IMG/VR virus record: IMGVR_UViG_3300009678_000043
Span: 1 to 25,047 of that record
Origin: a virus
DNA length: 25,047 nt
Direction: 5' to 3' (one strand)
Position numbers and translations under genes: made by a program. Positions 1 through 25,047 of this stretch are shown in pieces; within the stretch, counting starts at the first letter, position 1; each line of letters starts with the position of its first letter. The notes beneath the pieces are model-generated. The model was not told the origin of the DNA, ran no database searches, and was given only the letters and a program-made list of their open reading frames with translations.

Positions 1-123
1 CGGGCTGGTGTTTGGCGTCGCTGCCCAGATGGTCCGGAACGATCCGGATCTCGACGCGGCGTGCTACATCGTCGAGTCGCAGAAGAAGATTGTCCATCGC
101 GCGAGTGGCAGCTTTTACCGCGC
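1..123. repeat. Terminal overlap, copy 1 (identical to 24925..25047)
   Basis: Direct comparison: cgggctggtgtttggcgtcgctgcccag...gcttttaccgcgc occurs at both window ends. Confidence 0.95.
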
Positions 124-1640: not shown

Positions 1641-3524
1641 GTGGTGGGTAGTGCTTCACTGCCTGCCGTGGATCTCGCCTATTCCCTCTTAGAAATTAAA
1701 GCGGTCGATCCGGCGGCGCGGCGGTTCTCCGGGATTGCCAGTACGCCGGAGCTCGACCGGCACGGGGACTCGGTCGATCCGGCGGGCGTCAGCTTCCGGA
1801 ACCCGGTCCCGCTGCTGTTCCACCACGACACCCGGCAACCGATCGGGCGGGTCACGCTCACGGCCACGGCCGCGGGGATCCTGTTCGACGCCACCTTGCC
1901 CACCGTCGAGGAGTCGGGCGTCCTCAAGTCGCGCGTCGATGAAGCCTGGCAGTCGATCAAGGCCGGGGTGATCTCCGGCGTCTCGATTGGGTTCCGGATC
2001 CTCGGCGACGCGGTCGAGTACGCCGGGAACGTCCGCAAGATCCTCAAATCTGAAATCTGCGAAGTCTCGCTCGTCACCATTCCCGCGAATGCGAACGCTT
2101 CCATTCTGAGCGTCAAGGCGCTCGTCCAGAGCCACAAGGGGCCGATCATGAAACAGACAGCCGCGGAGCACATCGAAGCATTGGAAAACAAACGGGCGGC
2201 GCTCGCGGCCCGGATGGTGACGATCATGGAAGGGACCGCCGAGGACGGCGCCACGCTCGGCGACGAGCCGGCGGCGGAGCACGACGGGCTGCGCGACCAG
2301 GTCAAGAGCATCGACGCGGACTTGGGCCGGTGGCGCGAGCACGAAGCGTTGCAGATCACCAAGGCGGTCCAGGTGCCCGCGCCGGCGCCGGGCGTCATTC
2401 GTCCCTACTACGCGCCCGTGTCCGTGCGGCCGAACGTCCCGCCCGGCATCAAGCTGGCGCGGTTTGCGATCGCCAAGCTGGCGTCGAGGCTCGAGGGCTG
2501 CGACGCCGCGGTGTACGCCGAGAAGCGGTGGAACGATTCGACGCCGGAAGTGGCGCTGGCCATCAAAGCGGCCGTCGCGGCCGGGAACACGACCGACGCG
2601 ACCTGGGCGAAGCCGCTCGTCAACGCGGCCATTGTCGAAGACTTCCTGCCGCTCCTCAGCGCCGCCACGATCGTCGGCAAGATCCAGGGGCTGAAGAAAG
2701 TCCCGTTCAACGTGCAAGTCCCGGCGCAGACGGCCGGCGGCACGTACAACTGGGTCGGGGAGCTCAAGCCGAAGCCGGTCACGTCTCTCGCGTTTGCGAT
2801 GGAGACGCTGGGGTTTAACAAGATCGCGGCGATCGTCGTCCTCTCGCAGGAGCTCGTCCGGTTCTCCAACCCGTCCGCCGAGGCGCTCGTCCGCGACGAC
2901 ATGGTCAAGGGGATCGCGGCGTTCATTGACGGCCAGTTCATCAACCCGGCGGTGGCCGCGGTCGCGGGCGTCAACCCGGCCTCGATCACGAACGGCGCCC
3001 CGACCGCCGCGGGCACGGTCTCGCCGCTCGCGGACATCCTGGCATTGATCGCCCACTTCTCGACGAACAACATCCCGGTCGAGGGGCTAACGTTCCTGCT
3101 CTCGCCGGGAAACGCGCTGGCGCTGTCGTTCCGGACCAACTCGGACGGCTCGCCGGAGTTCCCGGGGATCGGGATCAACGGCGGCTCGTACAAGGGGCTC
3201 CAGTTCATCACGTCGAACGCGCTCGGCGCGAACGTGGTGGCGCTCCAGCCGGCGCTCATCCTCTTCGCCGACGATGGCGGCGTGACGATTGACGCGAGCA
3301 CGGAAGCGTCGCTCCAGATGGACAGCGCGCCGATGTCTCCCGTGGACGCGACCACGGTCTACGCCTCGATGTTCCAGATGAACGCGGTCGCCTTGCGGGC
3401 GGAGCGGTACATCACCTGGAAGCGCGTCGGGACCAACTCGGTGAAGTACCTGACGGCGGTCGCGTGGCCCGGGCCGTCCGGGACGACGGTGACGGTCGAG
3501 GGCGGATCGCGGAAGAAGGACTAA
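1641..3524 (+). CDS. Fused HK97-family prohead protease + coiled-coil scaffold (delta-like) + HK97-fold major capsid protein, 627 aa
   Basis: The N-terminus has S78/U35 prohead protease motifs (LLFHHDTRQPIG with the catalytic His, GVSIGF with the catalytic Ser). Residues about 170-235 are a Glu/Ala-rich coiled coil (MKQTAAEHIEALENKRAALAARM). The remainder resembles Phage_capsid. There is no stop between the domains. The 5' start is uncertain (GTG 1641, 1644 or 1668). Confidence 0.85.
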   Translation: MVGSASLPAVDLAYSLLEIKAVDPAARRFSGIASTPELDRHGDSVDPAGVSFRNPVPLLFHHDTRQPIGRVTLTATAAGILFDATLPTVEESGVLKSRVDEAWQSIKAGVISGVSIGFRILGDAVEYAGNVRKILKSEICEVSLVTIPANANASILSVKALVQSHKGPIMKQTAAEHIEALENKRAALAARMVTIMEGTAEDGATLGDEPAAEHDGLRDQVKSIDADLGRWREHEALQITKAVQVPAPAPGVIRPYYAPVSVRPNVPPGIKLARFAIAKLASRLEGCDAAVYAEKRWNDSTPEVALAIKAAVAAGNTTDATWAKPLVNAAIVEDFLPLLSAATIVGKIQGLKKVPFNVQVPAQTAGGTYNWVGELKPKPVTSLAFAMETLGFNKIAAIVVLSQELVRFSNPSAEALVRDDMVKGIAAFIDGQFINPAVAAVAGVNPASITNGAPTAAGTVSPLADILALIAHFSTNNIPVEGLTFLLSPGNALALSFRTNSDGSPEFPGIGINGGSYKGLQFITSNALGANVVALQPALILFADDGGVTIDASTEASLQMDSAPMSPVDATTVYASMFQMNAVALRAERYITWKRVGTNSVKYLTAVAWPGPSGTTVTVEGGSRKKD

Positions 3525-16222: not shown

Positions 16223-16251
16223 ACTATACATGCGCTAGTACGGCGCGTCAA
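16223..16251 (-). promoter_or_regulatory. Sigma-70-like promoter TTGACG-17-TATAGT driving the minus-strand integrase operon (leaderless geometry)
   Basis: On the minus strand the -35 TTGACG is at 16251..16246. The spacer is 17 nt. The -10 TATAGT is at 16228..16223. TGCGCC then precedes ATG 16216. Confidence 0.6.
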
Positions 16252-16285: not shown

Positions 16286-16314
16286 TTGACAAATCGAGAT
16301 ACCGGAGGTATACC
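16286..16314 (+). promoter_or_regulatory. Sigma-70-like promoter TTGACA-17-TATACC for the low-GC cassette, with palindrome GGTATACC over the -10
   Basis: -35 TTGACA at 16286..16291, a 17-nt spacer, -10 TATACC at 16309..16314. The perfect 8-bp palindrome at 16307..16314 is a candidate RHH operator. Confidence 0.55.
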
Positions 16315-16324
16315 TAGGGGCTCT

Positions 16325-16462
16325 GTGATTAAGCAAATGATTAGCTTCACGATTCCCCAGCGGCACTACCTCATCCGCGAAGCCAAGCGCCTGGGCATCT
16401 CGCTCGCCGAACTCGTGCGTCGCATCATTGACCGCCACATCGAACTCAAGAAGGACGCCTGA
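16325..16462 (+). CDS. Ribbon-helix-helix (CopG/Arc/MetJ-type) DNA-binding protein, 45 aa
   Basis: Translation: VIKQMISFTIPQRHYLIREAKRLGISLAELVRRIIDRHIELKKDA. This is a classic RHH layout: beta strand ISFTIP followed by two helices. The start is GTG 16325 or ATG 16337. Confidence 0.7.
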   Translation: MIKQMISFTIPQRHYLIREAKRLGISLAELVRRIIDRHIELKKDA

Positions 16463-16463
16463 G

Positions 16464-17324
16464 ATGGGAGCGACTGTGTTGACTGATCACCGCGTTGCCG
16501 AGTTTGCGCCCGCCGGCCAGATGACCGAAGCGCAGTACACCGTTGAGCGTCAGCGGATCCGGGCGACCTATGGCGACACCGCGACGGAGCACACTGGCGC
16601 CTTCGACCAAGACTTAGCCCGATTGATTTTCCGGTCGAAGTGGTCTGACTCAAAACTAGCGAAGCATGAAGGCAAGACAGAACGCTGGGTCAGGTACCGG
16701 ACTACGTTCGGGGCCTTTTTGGATTTTGGAACCACGGTTCCAATTCCCAAATCCTGCACTGAGCGGCGCTTCCGTGAGTTCTGGGACCGGACGGATCCAA
16801 ACGAAACCAATGTGCGGATCCGCTTCCGCGAAGTCGCGCGATTAATGGAAGAGAAATTGAGTTTATCGAAGCCACCTACCAATAAACCGAAGGTCGCAAA
16901 GGTGATTCTCGAGGACTTTGCCGATGGGAAATGGCATCGGCTCACCACGATCGTGGCCGGCGTCCAGGCCAAGGAGCCGCAGGCCACGGAAGGTGATGTT
17001 AAGGCCGTGCTCTTTTCGATGTGCAAGACCGGCGCACGTCACACCGCAGCAGAACGCCGCAGAGGAGGCGGCAATAGTTGGAGTTACCGGATCGTCCGCG
17101 GAGTCGGACGGAAGGTTGATGTTGATGTCTTAGTTCATGAACTGGGTCCGATCGTTCAGGCACTGAAAGTCGAAGGCCGTAAACACATCGCGGAAGCCTC
17201 ACCAGCGGCGATCGCGAGTTTGGCCAAACAACTGGAAGTCATCCTCGAACGCTTGACCCATGAAGATGCCCGGCTCTTTACCCGCCCGGCAAAGAAGGAG
17301 AAGTCTGATGGAACCATCGTTTAA
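16464..17324 (+). CDS. Uncharacterised DNA-binding protein with a ParB-HTH-like segment and a C-terminal winged-helix-like segment, 286 aa
   Basis: ATG 16464 lies 1 nt after the RHH stop. SDSKLAKHEGKTERWVRYRTTFGAFL resembles the ParB/KorB HTH. KWHRLTTIVAGV...GDVKAVLFSMCKTGARHTAA...WSYRIV looks winged-helix-like. The region is visibly lower in GC than the backbone. Confidence 0.7.
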   Translation: MGATVLTDHRVAEFAPAGQMTEAQYTVERQRIRATYGDTATEHTGAFDQDLARLIFRSKWSDSKLAKHEGKTERWVRYRTTFGAFLDFGTTVPIPKSCTERRFREFWDRTDPNETNVRIRFREVARLMEEKLSLSKPPTNKPKVAKVILEDFADGKWHRLTTIVAGVQAKEPQATEGDVKAVLFSMCKTGARHTAAERRRGGGNSWSYRIVRGVGRKVDVDVLVHELGPIVQALKVEGRKHIAEASPAAIASLAKQLEVILERLTHEDARLFTRPAKKEKSDGTIV

Positions 17325-18177
17325 ACTCGTGAAAGCGGACGTCGTGCCGCTGACCCATGAACTCGCTGTCGAGTTCCGTGAAATGACGCCCTCGCCCACG
17401 GAGCGTGATTTCAATCCCGCGCGCTTGAAGATGCTTCAGCAGAAAGCCGCGGCCAACCAACTCTTGACCTTTCACTGGGCGAAGGCCCGGATGGACGGCA
17501 AGATGCTCCGCGTCAACGGCCAGCACAGCTCGATCATGCTCGCCGAATTGAATGGCGGCTTTCCTGATGGGCTGCAGGTCCATATTGACGAGTACGTCGT
17601 CGATGGGCCGGGAGGCTTGGCGCTGCTCTTCCGGCAGTTCGATGACCGCAAGTCGGGCCGATCAACCGCGGACATCTCCGGGGCGTATCAGAACCTGGTG
17701 ACGGCGTTGCAGGGCGTCGCCAAGCCGGTCGGCAAGCTCGGCGTGGAGGGCATCACCTGGTACAACCGCAACATTGAAAACGTCGAGACGCCGCTCGGCG
17801 ACGAGCAGTACACCCTCTTCAATCAGAGTCTGACCCAGCAGTTCCTGCTCTGGTTGAATGAGATCTTCAGCATCAAGACCCCGGAGCTCCGGAAGGTGCC
17901 GGTGGTGGCCGCGATGTACGGGACGTTCCTCAAGAATCCCGAAGAGACGCGGAAGTTCTGGGCCGAAGTCGCGCGCGGGGGCAAGGAGTACGAAGACAAC
18001 GCCCCGAGTACGATTCTCGATGCCTGGCTGAAGTCCATCAAGGAAGAGAAGCTCGAGCTCAAGCCGGGCGAGTACTTCCGCGGCTGCGTCTACGCCTGGA
18101 ATGCCGCGCGTGATGACAAGCAGATCAAGGAGATCCGCTACGACCTGAAGCGGGTCACGCAGACGATCGCGGATTGA
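17308..18177 (+). CDS. Uncharacterised ParB/sulfiredoxin-fold-like protein (GQH motif), 289 aa
   Basis: ATG 17308 follows AAGGAGAAG and overlaps the upstream gene by 17 nt. The N-terminal ERDFNPARLKMLQQKAAANQLLTFHWAKARMDGKMLRVNGQHSSIMLAEL matches the ParB N-domain/DGQHR layout, but with N and S replacing the canonical D and R. The rest is helical with no motif I recognise. Confidence 0.7.
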   Translation: MEPSFKLVKADVVPLTHELAVEFREMTPSPTERDFNPARLKMLQQKAAANQLLTFHWAKARMDGKMLRVNGQHSSIMLAELNGGFPDGLQVHIDEYVVDGPGGLALLFRQFDDRKSGRSTADISGAYQNLVTALQGVAKPVGKLGVEGITWYNRNIENVETPLGDEQYTLFNQSLTQQFLLWLNEIFSIKTPELRKVPVVAAMYGTFLKNPEETRKFWAEVARGGKEYEDNAPSTILDAWLKSIKEEKLELKPGEYFRGCVYAWNAARDDKQIKEIRYDLKRVTQTIAD

Positions 18178-18194
18178 ATCGACTGAACGAAGAA

Positions 18195-18228
18195 AGCGCC
18201 CGCGCAGTCTGGGAACTGCGCGGGCGCT
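18195..18228. terminator. Bidirectional intrinsic terminator hairpin between convergent genes
   Basis: 13-bp perfect stem AGCGCCCGCGCAG / CTGCGCGGGCGCT with an 8-nt loop. On the minus strand it is followed by TTTCTTCGTT. Confidence 0.75.
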
Positions 18229-18231
18229 CCC

Positions 18232-18474
18232 TCACCAAAACATCGCCGTCGTCACAACCTGGGCGACGGTGAAGAGCGTCTCGAACGGCAACCGCGGGGG
18301 GATCTCCCGTCGCCGCCGGCGCGTCGGCGTCGTAAGGCAATTAGTGATGAGCAGCTTTACGGCGGCGTACCGCGCGGGGAGGTGGCGCCTCAGGTGCGCC
18401 AAGCCGCGTGTGAGGGTCTCTAGTTCGGCGTCCCGCGGCAGGCTTGGGAACTCGACTGGACGCAGAATCTGGGC
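18232..18474 (-). CDS. Probable true 3' portion of the repressor gene, in the +1 frame relative to 18341..18898
   Basis: By hand count about 83% of codons here end in G/C, against about 49% for the cI-frame reading of the same bases. The peptide QILRPVEFPSLPRDAELETLTRGLAHLRRHLPARYAAVKLLITNCLT... looks protein-like. The stop at 18232-18234 lies 3 nt from the terminator hairpin. There is no canonical start codon near the point where the bias begins. Confidence 0.5.
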   Translation of the reverse strand, partial: AQILRPVEFPSLPRDAELETLTRGLAHLRRHLPARYAAVKLLITNCLTTPTRRRRREIPPRLPFETLFTVAQVVTTAMFW

Positions 18475-18898
18475 GCTCGATGAGCGTGTGGAGTGTGCGG
18501 ACGAGGACGCGGACGGCGTCGAGGGTGGCTCGGTGGCGGTCGAACTCTTCCCAGAGGCGATCGACGGAGTTCTCGATCCGCGGCCGAGCGCCTGGCCGCG
18601 GAGTGCGACGAGTTTCAACATGCAACCCTCCTGACATTGCCGGTTTAGTGAGAGGGAGCGACTCACTCCGATCTGCAAACAGCGCGTCCAAATCACACTC
18701 AAAGTACTCCGCCACCCGATCGATCAAGTTCAGGCGAATCGCACGTTTCCCCGTCAAGACCTGGGAAATCCAAGCGTCGGATTTGCCGACCCCTTTCGCG
18801 AGATCGCCTTGTCGCTCGCCACGTTCACGCAGGCGGGCAAGGATGTTTTTGCGTAGGAGATCGAGAGTTCGACTGGGCACAGGCCGTCTATACCCCAT
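18341..18898 (-). CDS. cI-like immunity repressor (XRE-family HTH); the reading frame is probably broken near 18470
   Basis: N-terminal HTH: LRKNILARLRERGERQGDLAKGVGKSDAWISQVLTGKRAIRLNLIDRVAEYF. It is divergent from a Cro-like gene. The last 45 or so residues of this frame are Arg/Pro/Ala-rich and low complexity, with poor third-position bias. Confidence 0.75.
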   Translation of the reverse strand: MGYRRPVPSRTLDLLRKNILARLRERGERQGDLAKGVGKSDAWISQVLTGKRAIRLNLIDRVAEYFECDLDALFADRSESLPLTKPAMSGGLHVETRRTPRPGARPRIENSVDRLWEEFDRHRATLDAVRVLVRTLHTLIERPDSASSRVPKPAAGRRTRDPHTRLGAPEAPPPRAVRRRKAAHH

Positions 18899-19811: not shown

Positions 19812-20107
19812 TGTGGATTGCGATCGTCTTGTCGTTTCTGTCGTTCTGTGTCGCGCTCTGGGCCGTCTGGATCGCGATTGCCGCGGCGATCAAGAACCAG
19901 GCGCTCGAGCTGCGGATCGTCCAGGTGCTCCAACGCGCCGAAGACGAAGAGGTCGCGCGGACCACGGCGCTCGAGCTCCTCGACGCCGTGATGCTCAAGC
20001 GGACGGAAGAGCTCAAGGCGGCGACGGCGAAGATTGAGGCGCTTCGCCGGCACTACGAAACCTCGATCGCGATCGACGCGCCGCTCGGGTCGAAGCGGGT
20101 CCAGTGA
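19811..20107 (+). CDS. N-terminally membrane-anchored coiled-coil protein, 98 aa
   Basis: MWIAIVLSFLSFCVALWAVWIAIAAAI, followed by a charged helical region. Confidence 0.6.
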   Translation: MWIAIVLSFLSFCVALWAVWIAIAAAIKNQALELRIVQVLQRAEDEEVARTTALELLDAVMLKRTEELKAATAKIEALRRHYETSIAIDAPLGSKRVQ

Positions 20108-20120
20108 AGGAATTCTCAGA

Positions 20121-20729
20121 ATGCGAGCACGTCTCTTGAAACCGGGGTTCTTTACCAATGAGCGGTTAGCCAAGCTCCCGGTCCGCGCCCGCTTGTTATT
20201 CGCCGGGTTGTGGTGTCTCGCCGATCGGGAAGGGCGCCTGGAATATCGGCCCCAACGGATCCGCGCCGCCATCTTTCCGTACGAGCCGCGGGTCAAGATC
20301 GACGCCCTCATTCGTGCCTTGGAACTTGAGGAATTCGTCAAAAGGTATACCGTCGCGCACACTCCGTGCCTCGCGTTACCGCGCTTTGTACAACATCAGT
20401 CGCCACATCCGCGAGAACCAGAGAGCAAACTGCCGGCCGAGCCGTGTACTTTCCCGGCCTCGTCCTTGCCTGGCCCAGCGGTAGCGGTACCTAGATCCGG
20501 TAAAGATCAAGATCAAGAGATCACCGCTTCGCGGTCCGTGCCCTTTAAGGTCTACGCCGCAATTGCCGGACGCCTCCTCAAACAGACCGAAGACCTCGAC
20601 CTCGCACCCAGCGACCTCGCCGAAGAGTTCAAGAGAGCGTGCGCTAAGGAAGGCCTCGACTACCACGCGAGCATCGTGCAGCAAGCCATCGACGCCGCCC
20701 AGGCCATCCGCGGCCGGAGACGCGCATGA
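20121..20729 (+). CDS. Replication-associated protein (replisome-organiser-like N-terminal domain), 202 aa
   Basis: MRARLLKPGFFTNERLAKLPVRARLLFAGLWCLADREGRLEYRPQRIRAAIFPY is a conserved N-terminal pattern of prophage replication/organiser proteins (from memory; family name uncertain). Confidence 0.6.
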   Translation: MRARLLKPGFFTNERLAKLPVRARLLFAGLWCLADREGRLEYRPQRIRAAIFPYEPRVKIDALIRALELEEFVKRYTVAHTPCLALPRFVQHQSPHPREPESKLPAEPCTFPASSLPGPAVAVPRSGKDQDQEITASRSVPFKVYAAIAGRLLKQTEDLDLAPSDLAEEFKRACAKEGLDYHASIVQQAIDAAQAIRGRRRA

Positions 20730-24547: not shown

Positions 24548-25047
24548 ATGCCTGACTCCCCGGTGATCGAGATGAAACGCGATCGTCGAGGGGCGTGGAA
24601 CCGGAACGCACCCACTCGCCACGATGGCCCGACGCAGCCGCCGGCGCCCCCGCAAGACCCGATCGCCTTCATTAACCGGCTGACCCATACCAAGGGCCAA
24701 TTCGCCGGCCAGACGTTCCGTCTGCGGCCCTGGCAGATCCGGATCTTGAAGCGGCTGTTCAAGAAACGGCGCGATGGGCTGCGCCAGTACCGGACGTGCC
24801 TGCTCATGCTCGCTAGGAAGAACGGCAAGACGGAGCTCGCCGCGGCGATTGCGCTGTACGGCTTACTCGCGGACGGCGAGATGGGCGGCGAAGTCTACTC
24901 AGCCGCCGCGGATCGTGACCAGGCCGGGCTGGTGTTTGGCGTCGCTGCCCAGATGGTCCGGAACGATCCGGATCTCGACGCGGCGTGCTACATCGTCGAG
25001 TCGCAGAAGAAGATTGTCCATCGCGCGAGTGGCAGCTTTTACCGCGC
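24548..25047 (+). CDS. terL: Terminase large subunit, N-terminal part (runs off the window end; continues at 124..1231)
   Basis: ATG 24548 directly follows an in-frame TGA (24542-24544). FRLRPWQIRILKRLF ... LLMLARKNGKTELAAAIALYGLLADGEMGGEVYSAAADRDQAGLVF gives a Walker A-like KNGKT. It is absent from the ORF track because there is no stop in the window. The joined length is about 535 aa. Confidence 0.9.
   Translation, partial: MPDSPVIEMKRDRRGAWNRNAPTRHDGPTQPPAPPQDPIAFINRLTHTKGQFAGQTFRLRPWQIRILKRLFKKRRDGLRQYRTCLLMLARKNGKTELAAAIALYGLLADGEMGGEVYSAAADRDQAGLVFGVAAQMVRNDPDLDAACYIVESQKKIVHRASGSFYR
24925..25047. repeat. Terminal overlap, copy 2 (identical to 1..123)
   Basis: Direct comparison with the window start. 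Confidence 0.95.

What the first reader, a model, noticed from the sequence alone, without database searches (positions are those of the whole stretch)
16286..18228. Low-GC three-gene cassette (RHH + double-HTH protein + ParB/Srx-like GQH protein) between the integrase operon and the repressor: candidate undescribed prophage accessory or defence module
Seen in sequence:
- The stretch is visibly AT-richer than the backbone (many A/T-ending codons).
- It has its own TTGACA-17-TATACC promoter, with a perfect GGTATACC palindrome over the -10.
- It ends at a 13-bp-stem hairpin.
- Its three genes are tightly coupled (a 1-nt gap, then a 17-nt overlap).

The third protein has the layout of a ParB N-terminal/sulfiredoxin fold (ERDFNPARL...LRVNGQHSSIMLAEL). 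That layout recalls the DGQHR (DndB) and DGQQR (DUF262/GmrSD) motifs, but N and S replace the conserved D and R. The second protein combines a ParB/KorB-like HTH with a winged-helix-like C-terminal region.

None of the three genes is needed for a lytic or lysogenic cycle. The integrase/repressor junction is a classic moron and defence-gene hotspot in temperate phages. I do not recognise this gene trio as any named defence, TA or partition system.
Basis: partly seen in the sequence, partly recalled or inferred. Interest (0 to 1): 0.72.

Follow-up and report, generated by a model that had tools for sequence, protein, structure and literature searches.

The report
Split ParB-like module with internal site
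Two of the three genes form a widespread, unannotated phage gene pair that looks like a ParB DNA-segregation protein split into two proteins, with its parS-like DNA target site hidden inside the first gene; there is no evidence that it is a defence system.

Summary
The window is a complete, circular ~24.9-kb temperate phage genome. The cassette lies between the integrase operon and the repressor.

The conserved unit is a pair, not a trio. g2 (286 aa) sits next to g3 (289 aa) in 45 of 52 related loci, mostly phage early regions. The small ribbon-helix-helix gene g1 recurs only in the closest relative.

- **g3:** its AlphaFold model has a ParB/sulfiredoxin-fold N-domain. It belongs to a large family (1,856 clusters at 50% identity) that Pfam, NCBIfam and PADLOC all miss.
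- **g2:** it carries a ParB/Noc-type DNA-binding domain, a winged helix and two C-terminal helices.
- **New site:** a perfect 16–24-bp palindrome lies inside g2's coding sequence at the same position in 33 of 40 homologues. Its sequence differs between loci, and it is single-copy per locus.
- **Covariation:** two g2 residues, homologous to ParB R173 and G201, track two half-site bases. They follow the published ParB/Noc recognition rules, with at least 11–14 independent switches.

Best reading: a ParA-less, split ParB–parS-like switch acting in cis on phage DNA. Its biological role is unknown, and no evidence supports defence. It is a new variant of a known kind.

The parts
16286..16314 (+). 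Promoter-like site: TTGACA, 17-nt spacer, TATACC. The GGTATACC palindrome (16307-16314) overlaps the -10 and is a candidate operator for the g1 RHH protein.
   Evidence: Read directly. Not listed by the consensus scan because the -10 lacks the final T. Its function is inferred.
16223..16251 (-). Divergent promoter-like site TTGACG-17-TATAGT, facing the leftward integrase operon.
   Evidence: 10 of 12 consensus matches.
16337..16462 (+). g1: a 41-aa ribbon-helix-helix-like protein. It is a lineage-specific local regulator and not part of the conserved module.
   Evidence: Pfam RHH_1 E = 0.014, below the family cut-off. It is conserved only in the closest relative, L056. Other loci have unrelated upstream genes.
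16464..17324 (+). g2: a 286-aa protein. Residues ~45-107 form a ParB/Noc-type DNA-binding domain, residues ~142-212 a winged helix, and residues ~220-266 two long C-terminal helices.
   Evidence: - AF2 model pLDDT 79; Foldseek finds winged-helix matches.
- Pfam HTH_ParB matches 21 of 41 family members and KorB matches 7 of 41.
- The family profile aligns to the Noc DNA-binding domain, 6y93.
16726..16743 (.). parS-like palindrome TTGGAACC-AC-GGTTCCAA, with imperfect extension to 16718-16751. It lies inside g2, in the codons for F-G-T-T-V-P-I in the loop after the HTH. It is the only copy in the genome.
   Evidence: -: 0.02 copies expected by chance.
- The position is conserved in 33 of 40 homologues.
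- It covaries with g2 residues 73 and 101.
17308..18177 (+). g3: a 289-aa protein. Residues ~1-118 form a ParB/Srx-fold domain. Its motifs are SPTER (R33), RVNGQHS (residues 68-74, nt 17509-17529) and FRQFDDRKSGR (D112, R118). The rest is an all-helical domain.
   Evidence: - AF2 model pLDDT 90.7; Foldseek matches.
- Invariant residues across the diverse family.
- Family size.
18195..18228 (.). Hairpin with a 14-bp stem between the convergent g3 and repressor genes.
   Evidence: A U-rich tail follows it only on the - strand.

Best explanation
g2 and g3 form a two-protein derivative of a ParB-parS system that has no ParA.

**Proposed mechanism**
1. A g2 dimer uses its ParB/Noc-type DNA-binding domain to recognise one palindrome (16726-16743). 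The palindrome is embedded in g2's own reading frame.
2. g2's winged helix and C-terminal helices recruit g3.
3. g3's N-domain has the ParB/Srx nucleotide-binding fold with an altered phosphate motif (NGQHS in place of GERR or DGQHR).
4. The complex marks a single locus on the phage chromosome. It acts there as a nucleotide-gated switch or clamp working in cis. Its most likely job is to regulate or organise phage DNA early in infection, as the orphan ParB-like proteins KorB, BisD and Noc do on their replicons.
5. In this phage the pair sits under its own promoter with a lineage-specific RHH regulator (g1).

**What rests on computation here**
- The two folds.
- The site and its conserved position.
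- The covariation between g2 residues and site bases.
- The tight g2-g3 linkage.
- The absence of ParA.

**What is inferred**
- Physical g2-g3 contact.
- Nucleotide binding by g3.
- Clamp or switch behaviour.
- The biological role.
For: **g2-g3 linkage**
- g2-like and g3-like genes are adjacent on the same strand in 45 of 52 non-redundant loci from MAGs and viral contigs.
- The gap is at most 100 nt in 39 of 42 loci.
- No other neighbour is conserved.
- One database protein (P0136) fuses g2's C-terminal helices to g3.

**g2's DNA-binding domain**
- HTH_ParB and KorB profile hits occur across the family.
- The family profile aligns with the Noc DNA-binding domain from the HTH through ITERHARAL.

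**The site**
- Perfect palindromes with 7-12-bp arms occur at the same codon position in 33 of 40 homologues. The chance per locus is 0.5-5%.
- The sequences differ between loci while the peptide changes to keep the DNA symmetric.
- There is one copy per locus and one per complete genome.

**Covariation**
- The g2 residue homologous to ParB G201 / Noc R186 tracks the innermost half-site base. G goes with A in 11 of 11, R with C in 17 of 17 R-bearing loci (a further C-site locus has K), and W or F with G in 3 of 3.
- The residue homologous to ParB R173 / Noc Q158 tracks position -6. Q goes with A in 20 of 20 and R with G in 7 of 9.
- Fisher p is 8e-9 and 4e-9. At least 11-14 independent changes map on the tree.
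- Three or four predictions made from the protein alone were then confirmed on newly fetched DNA.
- The rules match those measured for ParB and Noc (PMC7383237).

**g3**
- Invariant R33, R68, G71, D112 and R118 lie in the N-domain.

**No ParA**
- The complete genome has no gene with a Walker-A motif of the ParA type.

**Precedents for ParA-less ParB-like switches on mobile elements**
- KorB (PMC11790492).
- BisD (PMC12409273).
- Phage ParB proteins lacking a DNA-binding domain that activate a partner enzyme (PMC13229309).
Against: - g3 has no sequence-level hit to ParBc or any other Pfam family.
- g3 lacks the GxxR arginine (S74). Its best PDB fold E-value is only 6.5e-3.
- The g2-g3 contact rests on synteny and one possible fusion, which could be an assembly frameshift.
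- 5 of 40 homologues lack a clear palindrome.
- This window's own residue 73 is E, an exception to the R-with-G rule.
- Short g2 forms in alphaproteobacterial MAGs lack both the DNA-binding domain and the site. The domain-site pair is therefore not indispensable to g3.
- The position between integrase and repressor also fits a moron.
- The biological role has not been tested.
Confidence: 0.55

Rival explanations
1. Prophage defence or superinfection-exclusion module. The cassette would be expressed from its own promoter in the lysogen and block incoming phages, with g3 acting as a DGQHR/DUF262-like NTPase sensor.
For: - It lies between integrase and repressor, has its own promoter-like site and has low GC.
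- The g3 fold resembles the DUF262 N-domains of SspE and GmrSD and also DndB.
Against: - No PADLOC hit even at E <= 1.
- No nuclease or other effector domain; g3's C-terminal half is all-helical.
- In related phages the pair sits inside the Cro-side early operon next to recombination genes.
- Its neighbours are early, replication and recombination genes, not defence genes.
- A cognate cis site inside the module points to action on the element's own DNA.
Confidence: 0.12
2. Origin plus initiator, as with lambda O. The palindrome would be a replication origin placed in the linker-coding part of the initiator gene g2, and g3 would be an accessory or loader protein.
For: - The site lies in the codons for the linker between g2's N-terminal DNA-binding domain and its C-terminal domains.
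- In other phages the pair sits among replication and recombination genes.
Against: - There is a single palindrome, with no iterons or AT-rich unwinding tract.
- The genome has a separate replication-initiator-like gene at 20034-20729 (PHROG 16167, E = 6e-36).
- The recognition code is that of ParB/Noc.
Confidence: 0.12
3. True partition centromere that borrows a ParA from the host or another element, stabilising an extrachromosomal form of the phage.
For: ParB-type DNA-binding domain with a single parS-like site.
Against: - No ParA in the complete genome or among the neighbours in about 50 loci.
- The phage has an integrase.
- No match in 72,556 plasmids.
Confidence: 0.07
4. g2 is just an autoregulatory DNA-binding protein, acting as a roadblock at its own intragenic site. 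g3 would be a functionally separate enzyme or activator of an unlinked partner, like the phage ParB proteins that activate T-dioxygenases.
For: - The site is downstream of g2's start, so binding there could block g2-g3 transcription.
- Phage ParB proteins without a DNA-binding domain can act as enzyme activators (PMC13229309).
Against: - No conserved third gene lies nearby.
- Strict g2-g3 adjacency across very diverse contexts.
- The possible fusion protein P0136.
Confidence: 0.12

Closest known systems
ParB-parS and Noc-NBS (chromosomal ParB family)
   Same: - g2's HTH and following helix align with the Noc/ParB DNA-binding domain, including GKS(Q/R) and (T/S)E-x-RF, which corresponds to ITERHAR.
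- The site has the same 16-bp dyad geometry.
- The same two specificity contacts apply: R173/Q173 with base 1 and G201/R201 with base 6.
- g3's N-domain has the ParB nucleotide-binding fold.
   Different: - The functions are split over two polypeptides.
- There is no ParA and no ParA-binding motif.
- g3 has NGQHS in place of GERRxR and gets no PF02195 hit.
- The site lies inside a coding sequence and is single-copy.
- g2 carries an extra winged helix.
KorB-OB (RK2) and BisD-bisS (ICEclc): ParA-independent regulatory ParB-like CTP clamps on mobile elements
   Same: - They are ParB-like proteins encoded on mobile elements.
- They load at a few palindromic sites and act on the element's own genes, with partner proteins KorA or BisC (PMC11790492, PMC12409273).
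- 7 of 41 g2 family members hit the KorB domain profile.
   Different: - KorB and BisD are single proteins with the N-terminal domain and the DNA-binding domain together.
- CTP binding is shown for them and is untested here.
- They use several sites, placed near promoters.
Phage DUF6551 and DndB-like (DGQHR) ParB/Srx proteins
   Same: - Similar size (~270-300 aa) and layout: a ParB/Srx N-domain followed by a helical domain.
- The motifs align in order: TER with QR, RVNGQHS with VLDGQHR, and FRQFDDRKS with FLGRDxRR.
- They are phage-encoded.
- DUF6551 fusions bind CTP or ATP (bioRxiv 10.1101/2025.10.10.680097).
   Different: - The profile-profile match is not significant (E = 0.0055, probability 6.6%, N-terminal 90 residues only).
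- D is replaced by N and R by S in the motif.
- There are no dnd genes nearby.
pNOB8 AspA-ParB-ParA (archaeal three-part segregation; recalled from memory, Schumacher et al. 2015)
   Same: A separate site-specific DNA-binding adaptor recruits a protein that carries a ParB N-domain.
   Different: - AspA is a small winged-helix protein, not a ParB DNA-binding domain.
- That system includes a ParA.
- This comparison was not tested here.

Membership tests
ParB/Srx fold superfamily (g3) | The alpha/beta N-domain fold, with a strand-Gly-helix nucleotide loop. | tested here: met
   - AF2 model pLDDT 90.7.
- The top PDB matches are all ParB/Srx proteins, though weak (E = 6.5e-3 to 1).
- 29 BFVD matches have E <= 1e-3, and they include phage proteins annotated as ParB-like, DndB-like or GmrSD-N.
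ParB/Srx fold superfamily (g3) | Sequence match to Pfam ParBc (PF02195) or a clan member. | tested here: not met
   No Pfam hit at E <= 1 for g3. No ParB-related hit in 44 diverse family members.
ParB/Srx fold superfamily (g3) | GxxR phosphate-binding arginine. | tested here: not met
   The motif is N70-G71-Q72-H73-S74, and S74 is nearly invariant. R68 and R33 are invariant and could substitute; that is an inference.
ParB/Srx fold superfamily (g3) | Nucleotide binding or hydrolysis. | not testable with these tools
   Needs DRaCALA or ITC on purified protein.
Canonical ParABS partition system | An adjacent ParA (Walker-type ATPase). | tested here: not met
   None in the complete 24.9-kb genome. 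None among about 250 neighbouring ORFs in 50 loci.
Canonical ParABS partition system | N-terminal domain, HTH domain and C-terminal domain in one polypeptide. | tested here: not met
   The DNA-binding domain is in g2 and the ParB/Srx domain is in g3.
Canonical ParABS partition system | ParB-type HTH DNA-binding domain. | tested here: met
   - HTH_ParB matches 21 of 41 family members (best E = 5.6e-4). The window's own copy gets no hit.
- The family profile aligns with the Noc DNA-binding domain, E = 0.03.
- Contact residues follow the ParB/Noc code.
Canonical ParABS partition system | A cognate palindromic parS-like site. | tested here: met
   Computational only. The site at 16726-16743 is conserved in position and covaries with g2 residues 73 and 101. 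Binding has not been measured.
DndB / DGQHR domain | The DGQHR motif and linkage to dnd genes. | tested here: not met
   The motif is NGQHS. There is no NCBIfam or Pfam hit and no dnd genes nearby.
DUF6551 (PF20188) | A profile match. | tested here: not met
   No Pfam hit. hhalign against a 24-sequence DUF6551 alignment gives E = 0.0055, probability 6.6%.
DUF262/GmrSD, SspE, BrxU | The DGQQR N-domain plus a DUF1524/HNH nuclease domain. | tested here: not met
   No Pfam or PADLOC hit. The C-terminal half is all-helical, and the diverse alignment shows no invariant residue typical of a nuclease site.
Known anti-phage defence systems (PADLOC-DB 2.0) | A match to any system component. | tested here: not met
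   No family at E <= 1 for any of the three proteins.
Ribbon-helix-helix (g1) | An RHH_1 profile match. | tested here: inconclusive
   E = 0.014, 15.7 bits against a cut-off of 20.5. The sequence pattern is compatible.

The most novel reading that the evidence does not exclude
A previously unrecognised class of phage genome-marking system.
- It is a ParB split into a site-reading subunit (g2) and a nucleotide-switch subunit (g3).
- It loads at a single parS-like site hidden in g2's coding sequence and works without ParA early in infection.
- Dozens of natural, mutually orthogonal site-protein pairs have been generated by repeated use of the same two-residue recognition code known from ParB and Noc.
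Probability: 0.45. Interest if true: 0.78.

Novelty: new variant of a known kind. Interest (0 to 1): 0.66.

Why it matters
1. **A blind spot in current surveys.** g3 stands for about 1,850 protein clusters at 50% identity that no profile library names. Published surveys of the ParB-CTPase fold were seeded with PF02195 and other ParB profiles, none of which matches g3, so they would miss it.

2. **A natural replicate of a laboratory result.** The g2 family repeats the ParB/Noc specificity-switch experiment in nature. The same two contact positions change together with the same two bases at least 11-14 times independently. This allows a direct test of how DNA-binding specificity evolves.

3. **A test of the clamp model.** With the DNA-binding domain and the nucleotide domain in separate proteins, one can ask whether ParB-type clamps need covalent linkage.

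4. **Possible tools.** The roughly 25 distinct site-protein pairs could serve as orthogonal DNA-labelling tools of the ParB/parS kind.

5. **Annotation.** The position of a cassette between integrase and repressor is not enough to call it a defence module.

Tried and rejected
**Searches that found nothing**
- Pfam, PADLOC, PHROGs and NCBIfam on the three proteins gave nothing usable.
- Sequence searches of PDB with g3 profiles gave only chance hits.
- tblastn of g2 and g3 against 50,697 deposited phage genomes and 72,556 plasmids found no match.
- Source names for NCBI and JGI members were all 'hypothetical protein'.

**Ideas tested and dropped**
- g3 as a DUF6551 member was rejected: hhalign probability is only 6.6-22%.
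- A conserved third gene was rejected: clustering of all neighbours within 6 kb found none.
- More copies of the palindrome or its half-sites (an iteron or centromere array) were not found.
- Direct repeats around the cassette were only chance-level pairs.
- RNA-hairpin and attenuator readings of the palindrome remain possible energetically. They do not explain the covariation with the DNA-contact residues.
- A toxin-antitoxin reading of g1 was dropped: the BrnA hit is E = 0.098 and g1 is not conserved with the pair.

**Tool failure**
- The search for related loci with the most diverse alignment failed. It was repeated with the closer alignment.
Full report
**1. The observation**

The three ORFs are as described.
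- g1 is 16337-16462 (41 aa), g2 is 16464-17324 (286 aa) and g3 is 17308-18177 (289 aa).
- g1 and g2 are separated by 1 nt; g2 and g3 overlap by 17 nt.
- Independent public gene calls on at least 10 contigs of the same phage, from several samples, give the same three products.

The other features are also present, with some qualifications.
- TTGACA (16286-16291), a 17-nt spacer, TATACC (16309-16314) and the GGTATACC palindrome are all there. A consensus scan does not list the site, because the -10 lacks the final T. It finds instead a divergent TTGACG-17-TATAGT on the minus strand, facing the integrase operon.
- The hairpin at 18195-18228 has a 14-bp perfect stem (-32 kcal/mol). It has no U tract on the plus strand and a U-rich tail on the minus strand. 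It may therefore chiefly terminate the convergent repressor gene.
- The cassette is the lowest-GC 1.9-kb stretch (58.6% against 64.7%). Only g2 has atypical third-position GC (0.63); g3 has 0.83, like the backbone.

**2. Context**

- The window has a 123-bp exact terminal overlap. It is therefore a complete, circular assembly of ~24.9 kb.
- It encodes a large terminase, a fused prohead protease-capsid, a portal, a tape measure protein, an integrase (-), an HTH repressor (-), Cro and HTH_17 genes, a replication-initiator-like protein, ERF, a Holliday-junction resolvase and an HNH endonuclease.
- It has no ParA-type Walker-A gene and no tRNA.

**3. What is conserved**

- No profile library names g2 or g3.
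- g3 has 493 relatives in the word-indexed search. A full profile search finds 1,856 representatives at 50% identity. None has a Pfam domain or a name.
- g2 has only 13 detectable relatives by direct search. HMM searches of the DNA around g3 homologues tell a different story: in 11 MAG loci, 37 viral contigs and 7 other contigs, a g2-like gene lies immediately next to g3 in 45 of 52 non-redundant loci. It lies upstream in 44 of them; in L045 the order is reversed.
- The gap between the two genes is at most 100 nt in 39 of 42 loci.
- Clustering of all ORFs within 6 kb finds no other conserved neighbour.
- g1 recurs only in the closest relative, L056. Elsewhere the upstream gene is unrelated.
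- The unit is therefore a pair, g2-g3, and g2 evolves much faster than g3.

**4. Where the pair sits elsewhere**

- In L016, L059 and L018 it lies inside the Cro-side early operon. In L017 it heads a rightward operon that ends in an integrase.
- Its neighbours include DUF3799/PD-(D/E)XK nucleases, AAA_24 (Sak4-like), RecT, YqaJ, SSB, NinB, RusA, methylases and XRE regulators.
- In some alphaproteobacterial MAGs it is a short or frameshifted remnant next to housekeeping genes or IS elements.
- No defence genes recur nearby.
- There is no match in deposited phage genomes or plasmids, so the family is known only from metagenomes.

**5. g3**

- With a 43-sequence alignment, AlphaFold gives pLDDT 90.7.
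- Against PDB, the best matches are Noc, ParB-CDP/CTPγS, sulfiredoxin, PadC, SbnI, SerK, Pfu-392566 and SspE. All are ParB/Srx-fold proteins, although the E-values are weak (from 6.5e-3).
- Against BFVD, 29 matches have E <= 1e-3 (best 7e-8). They include phage proteins of similar length annotated as ParB-like nuclease, DNA-sulfur-modification-associated (DndB) or GmrSD N-terminal, alongside many unnamed ones.
- Across a diverse 44-member alignment the invariant residues are R33, R68, G71, D112, R118 and F217. N70, H73 and S74 are nearly invariant.
- The motifs fall where ParB boxes I-III fall in the fold: strand 65-70, G71, helix 72-79, then strand 90-98 and helix 100-115. This mapping is inferred.
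- The motif order aligns with a DUF6551 protein (TER with QR, RVNGQHS with VLDGQHR, FRQFDDRKS with FLGRDxRR). The profile-profile score is not significant, so g3 is not a DUF6551 member.
- The C-terminal half is all-helical, with no recognisable nuclease motif.

**6. g2**

- AlphaFold gives pLDDT 79. The model has an N-terminal helical domain with an HTH (residues 22-132), a winged helix (142-212) and two long helices (220-266). Foldseek finds only generic winged-helix regulators.
- In a 41-member alignment, 21 members hit Pfam HTH_ParB and 7 hit the KorB domain.
- The family profile aligns with the Noc DNA-binding domain (6y93). The alignment runs from the HTH (WTQEELAKKEGKSQ.WV against LTQEALAQRLGKGQSTI) to LTERRFR against ITERHAR.
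- One database protein, P0136, carries g2's C-terminal helices fused in front of a g3 domain.

**7. The new finding: an intragenic parS-like site**

- The inverted-repeat scan showed a palindrome inside g2: TTGGAACC-AC-GGTTCCAA at 16726-16743. It is unique in the genome, with 0.02 copies expected by chance.
- In homologues, a perfect palindrome with 7-12-bp arms lies in the codons for the loop directly after 'FGRFLxF' in 33 of 40 full-length g2 genes. For random windows of the same locus the chance is 0.5-5%.
- The sequences differ between loci, for example TTTATCACCACGGTGATAAA, TTTACGCCAACTGGCGTAAA and TTTAGCACACCTGTGCTAAA. The encoded peptide changes accordingly (ITTVI, TPTGV, STPVL). Selection therefore acts on the DNA symmetry, not on the peptide.
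- Each locus has a single copy.

**8. Protein-DNA covariation**

- The residue after 'TE' (window R101) aligns with Noc R186 / ParB G201 and tracks the innermost half-site base. G goes with A in 11 of 11, R with C in 17 of 17 R-bearing loci (one further C-site locus has K), and W or F with G in 3 of 3.
- The residue in GKS-x (window E73) aligns with ParB R173 / Noc Q158 and tracks position -6. Q goes with A in 20 of 20 and R with G in 7 of 9.
- Fisher p values are 8e-9 and 4e-9. On a tree built without these segments, each character changes at least 11-14 times.
- I predicted the base from the protein for five further homologues and then fetched their DNA.
  - L057 (W, G), L058 (G, A) and L059 (G, A) fitted.
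  - L056 (W) has an imperfect palindrome with a CGG|CCG centre.
  - L060 has no clear site.
- These are the rules measured for ParB and Noc: R173 reads guanine 1, Q173 reads adenine 1, G201 goes with A6:T, and R201 reads C6:G (PMC7383237).
- If the central 2 nt are equated with parS positions 7/-7, the site has parS/NBS geometry.
- I take this as strong computational evidence that g2 binds this site in the ParB mode.

**9. Mechanism**

- The best-supported reading is a ParA-less, split ParB-parS-like module. g2 reads the site, g3 supplies the ParB/Srx nucleotide-fold subunit, and the complex acts in cis at one locus of the phage chromosome.
- Comparable orphan ParB-like switches on mobile elements regulate genes at a distance: KorB (PMC11790492) and BisD (PMC12409273).
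- Phage ParB proteins that lack a DNA-binding domain act through partners (PMC13229309).
- A recent survey shows the fold binding CTP, ATP or GTP in many orphan, element-borne forms.
- The g2-g3 contact, nucleotide binding and the biological role are all inferred.
- The rivals are defence, an origin plus initiator, partition with a borrowed ParA, and a simple autoregulator with an unrelated g3. All are less well supported and are listed with tests.

**10. Verdict**

- The fold calls were right. The 'trio' and 'defence' readings are not supported.
- This is a new variant of a known kind: an unannotated, large, phage-borne family with a split architecture and an intragenic, rapidly diversifying parS-like site.

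Noticed in passing
window 1-123 and 24925-25047: An exact 123-bp terminal direct overlap. The contig is a circular assembly, so the window is a complete ~24.9-kb temperate phage genome. The large-terminase ORF spans the junction.
   Followed up: partly
window 1641-3524: A single 627-aa ORF combines a prohead serine protease (Peptidase_S78) with a major capsid domain (Phage_capsid).
   Followed up: no
window 16223-16251 (- strand): Promoter-like TTGACG-17-TATAGT facing the leftward operon (96/150-aa ORF, 66-aa ORF, integrase). It is divergent from the cassette promoter, so the RHH protein g1 could control both.
   Followed up: no
window 18195-18228: The hairpin folds better on the minus strand and has a U-rich tail only there. 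It is probably the repressor gene's terminator rather than, or as well as, the cassette's.
   Followed up: partly
L001 4640-6785: A 63-kb contig carries a ParB_N protein (422 aa) and a DUF6551 protein (296 aa) directly upstream of its own g2-g3 pair. That makes two ParB-fold modules in tandem.
   Followed up: partly
L005, L007, L008, L011, L012, L013, L014 (alphaproteobacterial MAGs): These loci have short g2 forms with only the winged helix and C-terminal helices (no ParB DNA-binding domain, no palindrome). Some have an XRE-HTH gene upstream. g3 is frameshifted in L011-L014. They look like decaying or domesticated copies.
   Followed up: partly
L045 7932-9765: The gene order is reversed (g3 then g2), matching the N-domain-then-HTH order of canonical ParB. 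The palindrome is still inside g2.
   Followed up: no
window 16464-17324, residue 73: This phage's own g2 has Glu at the ParB-R173-equivalent position although its site has G at position -6. That is an exception to the R-with-G rule; the next residue, R74, may take over the contact.
   Followed up: no
half-sites across loci: Sites come in two spacing classes: a 2-nt centre, or a 1- or 3-nt centre. The half-site distance therefore differs by 1 bp between relatives, which is unexplained for a rigid ParB-type dimer.
   Followed up: no
window 18341-18898: The repressor gene also has low third-position GC (0.61), like g2. The immunity region and g2 may share a foreign origin.
   Followed up: no
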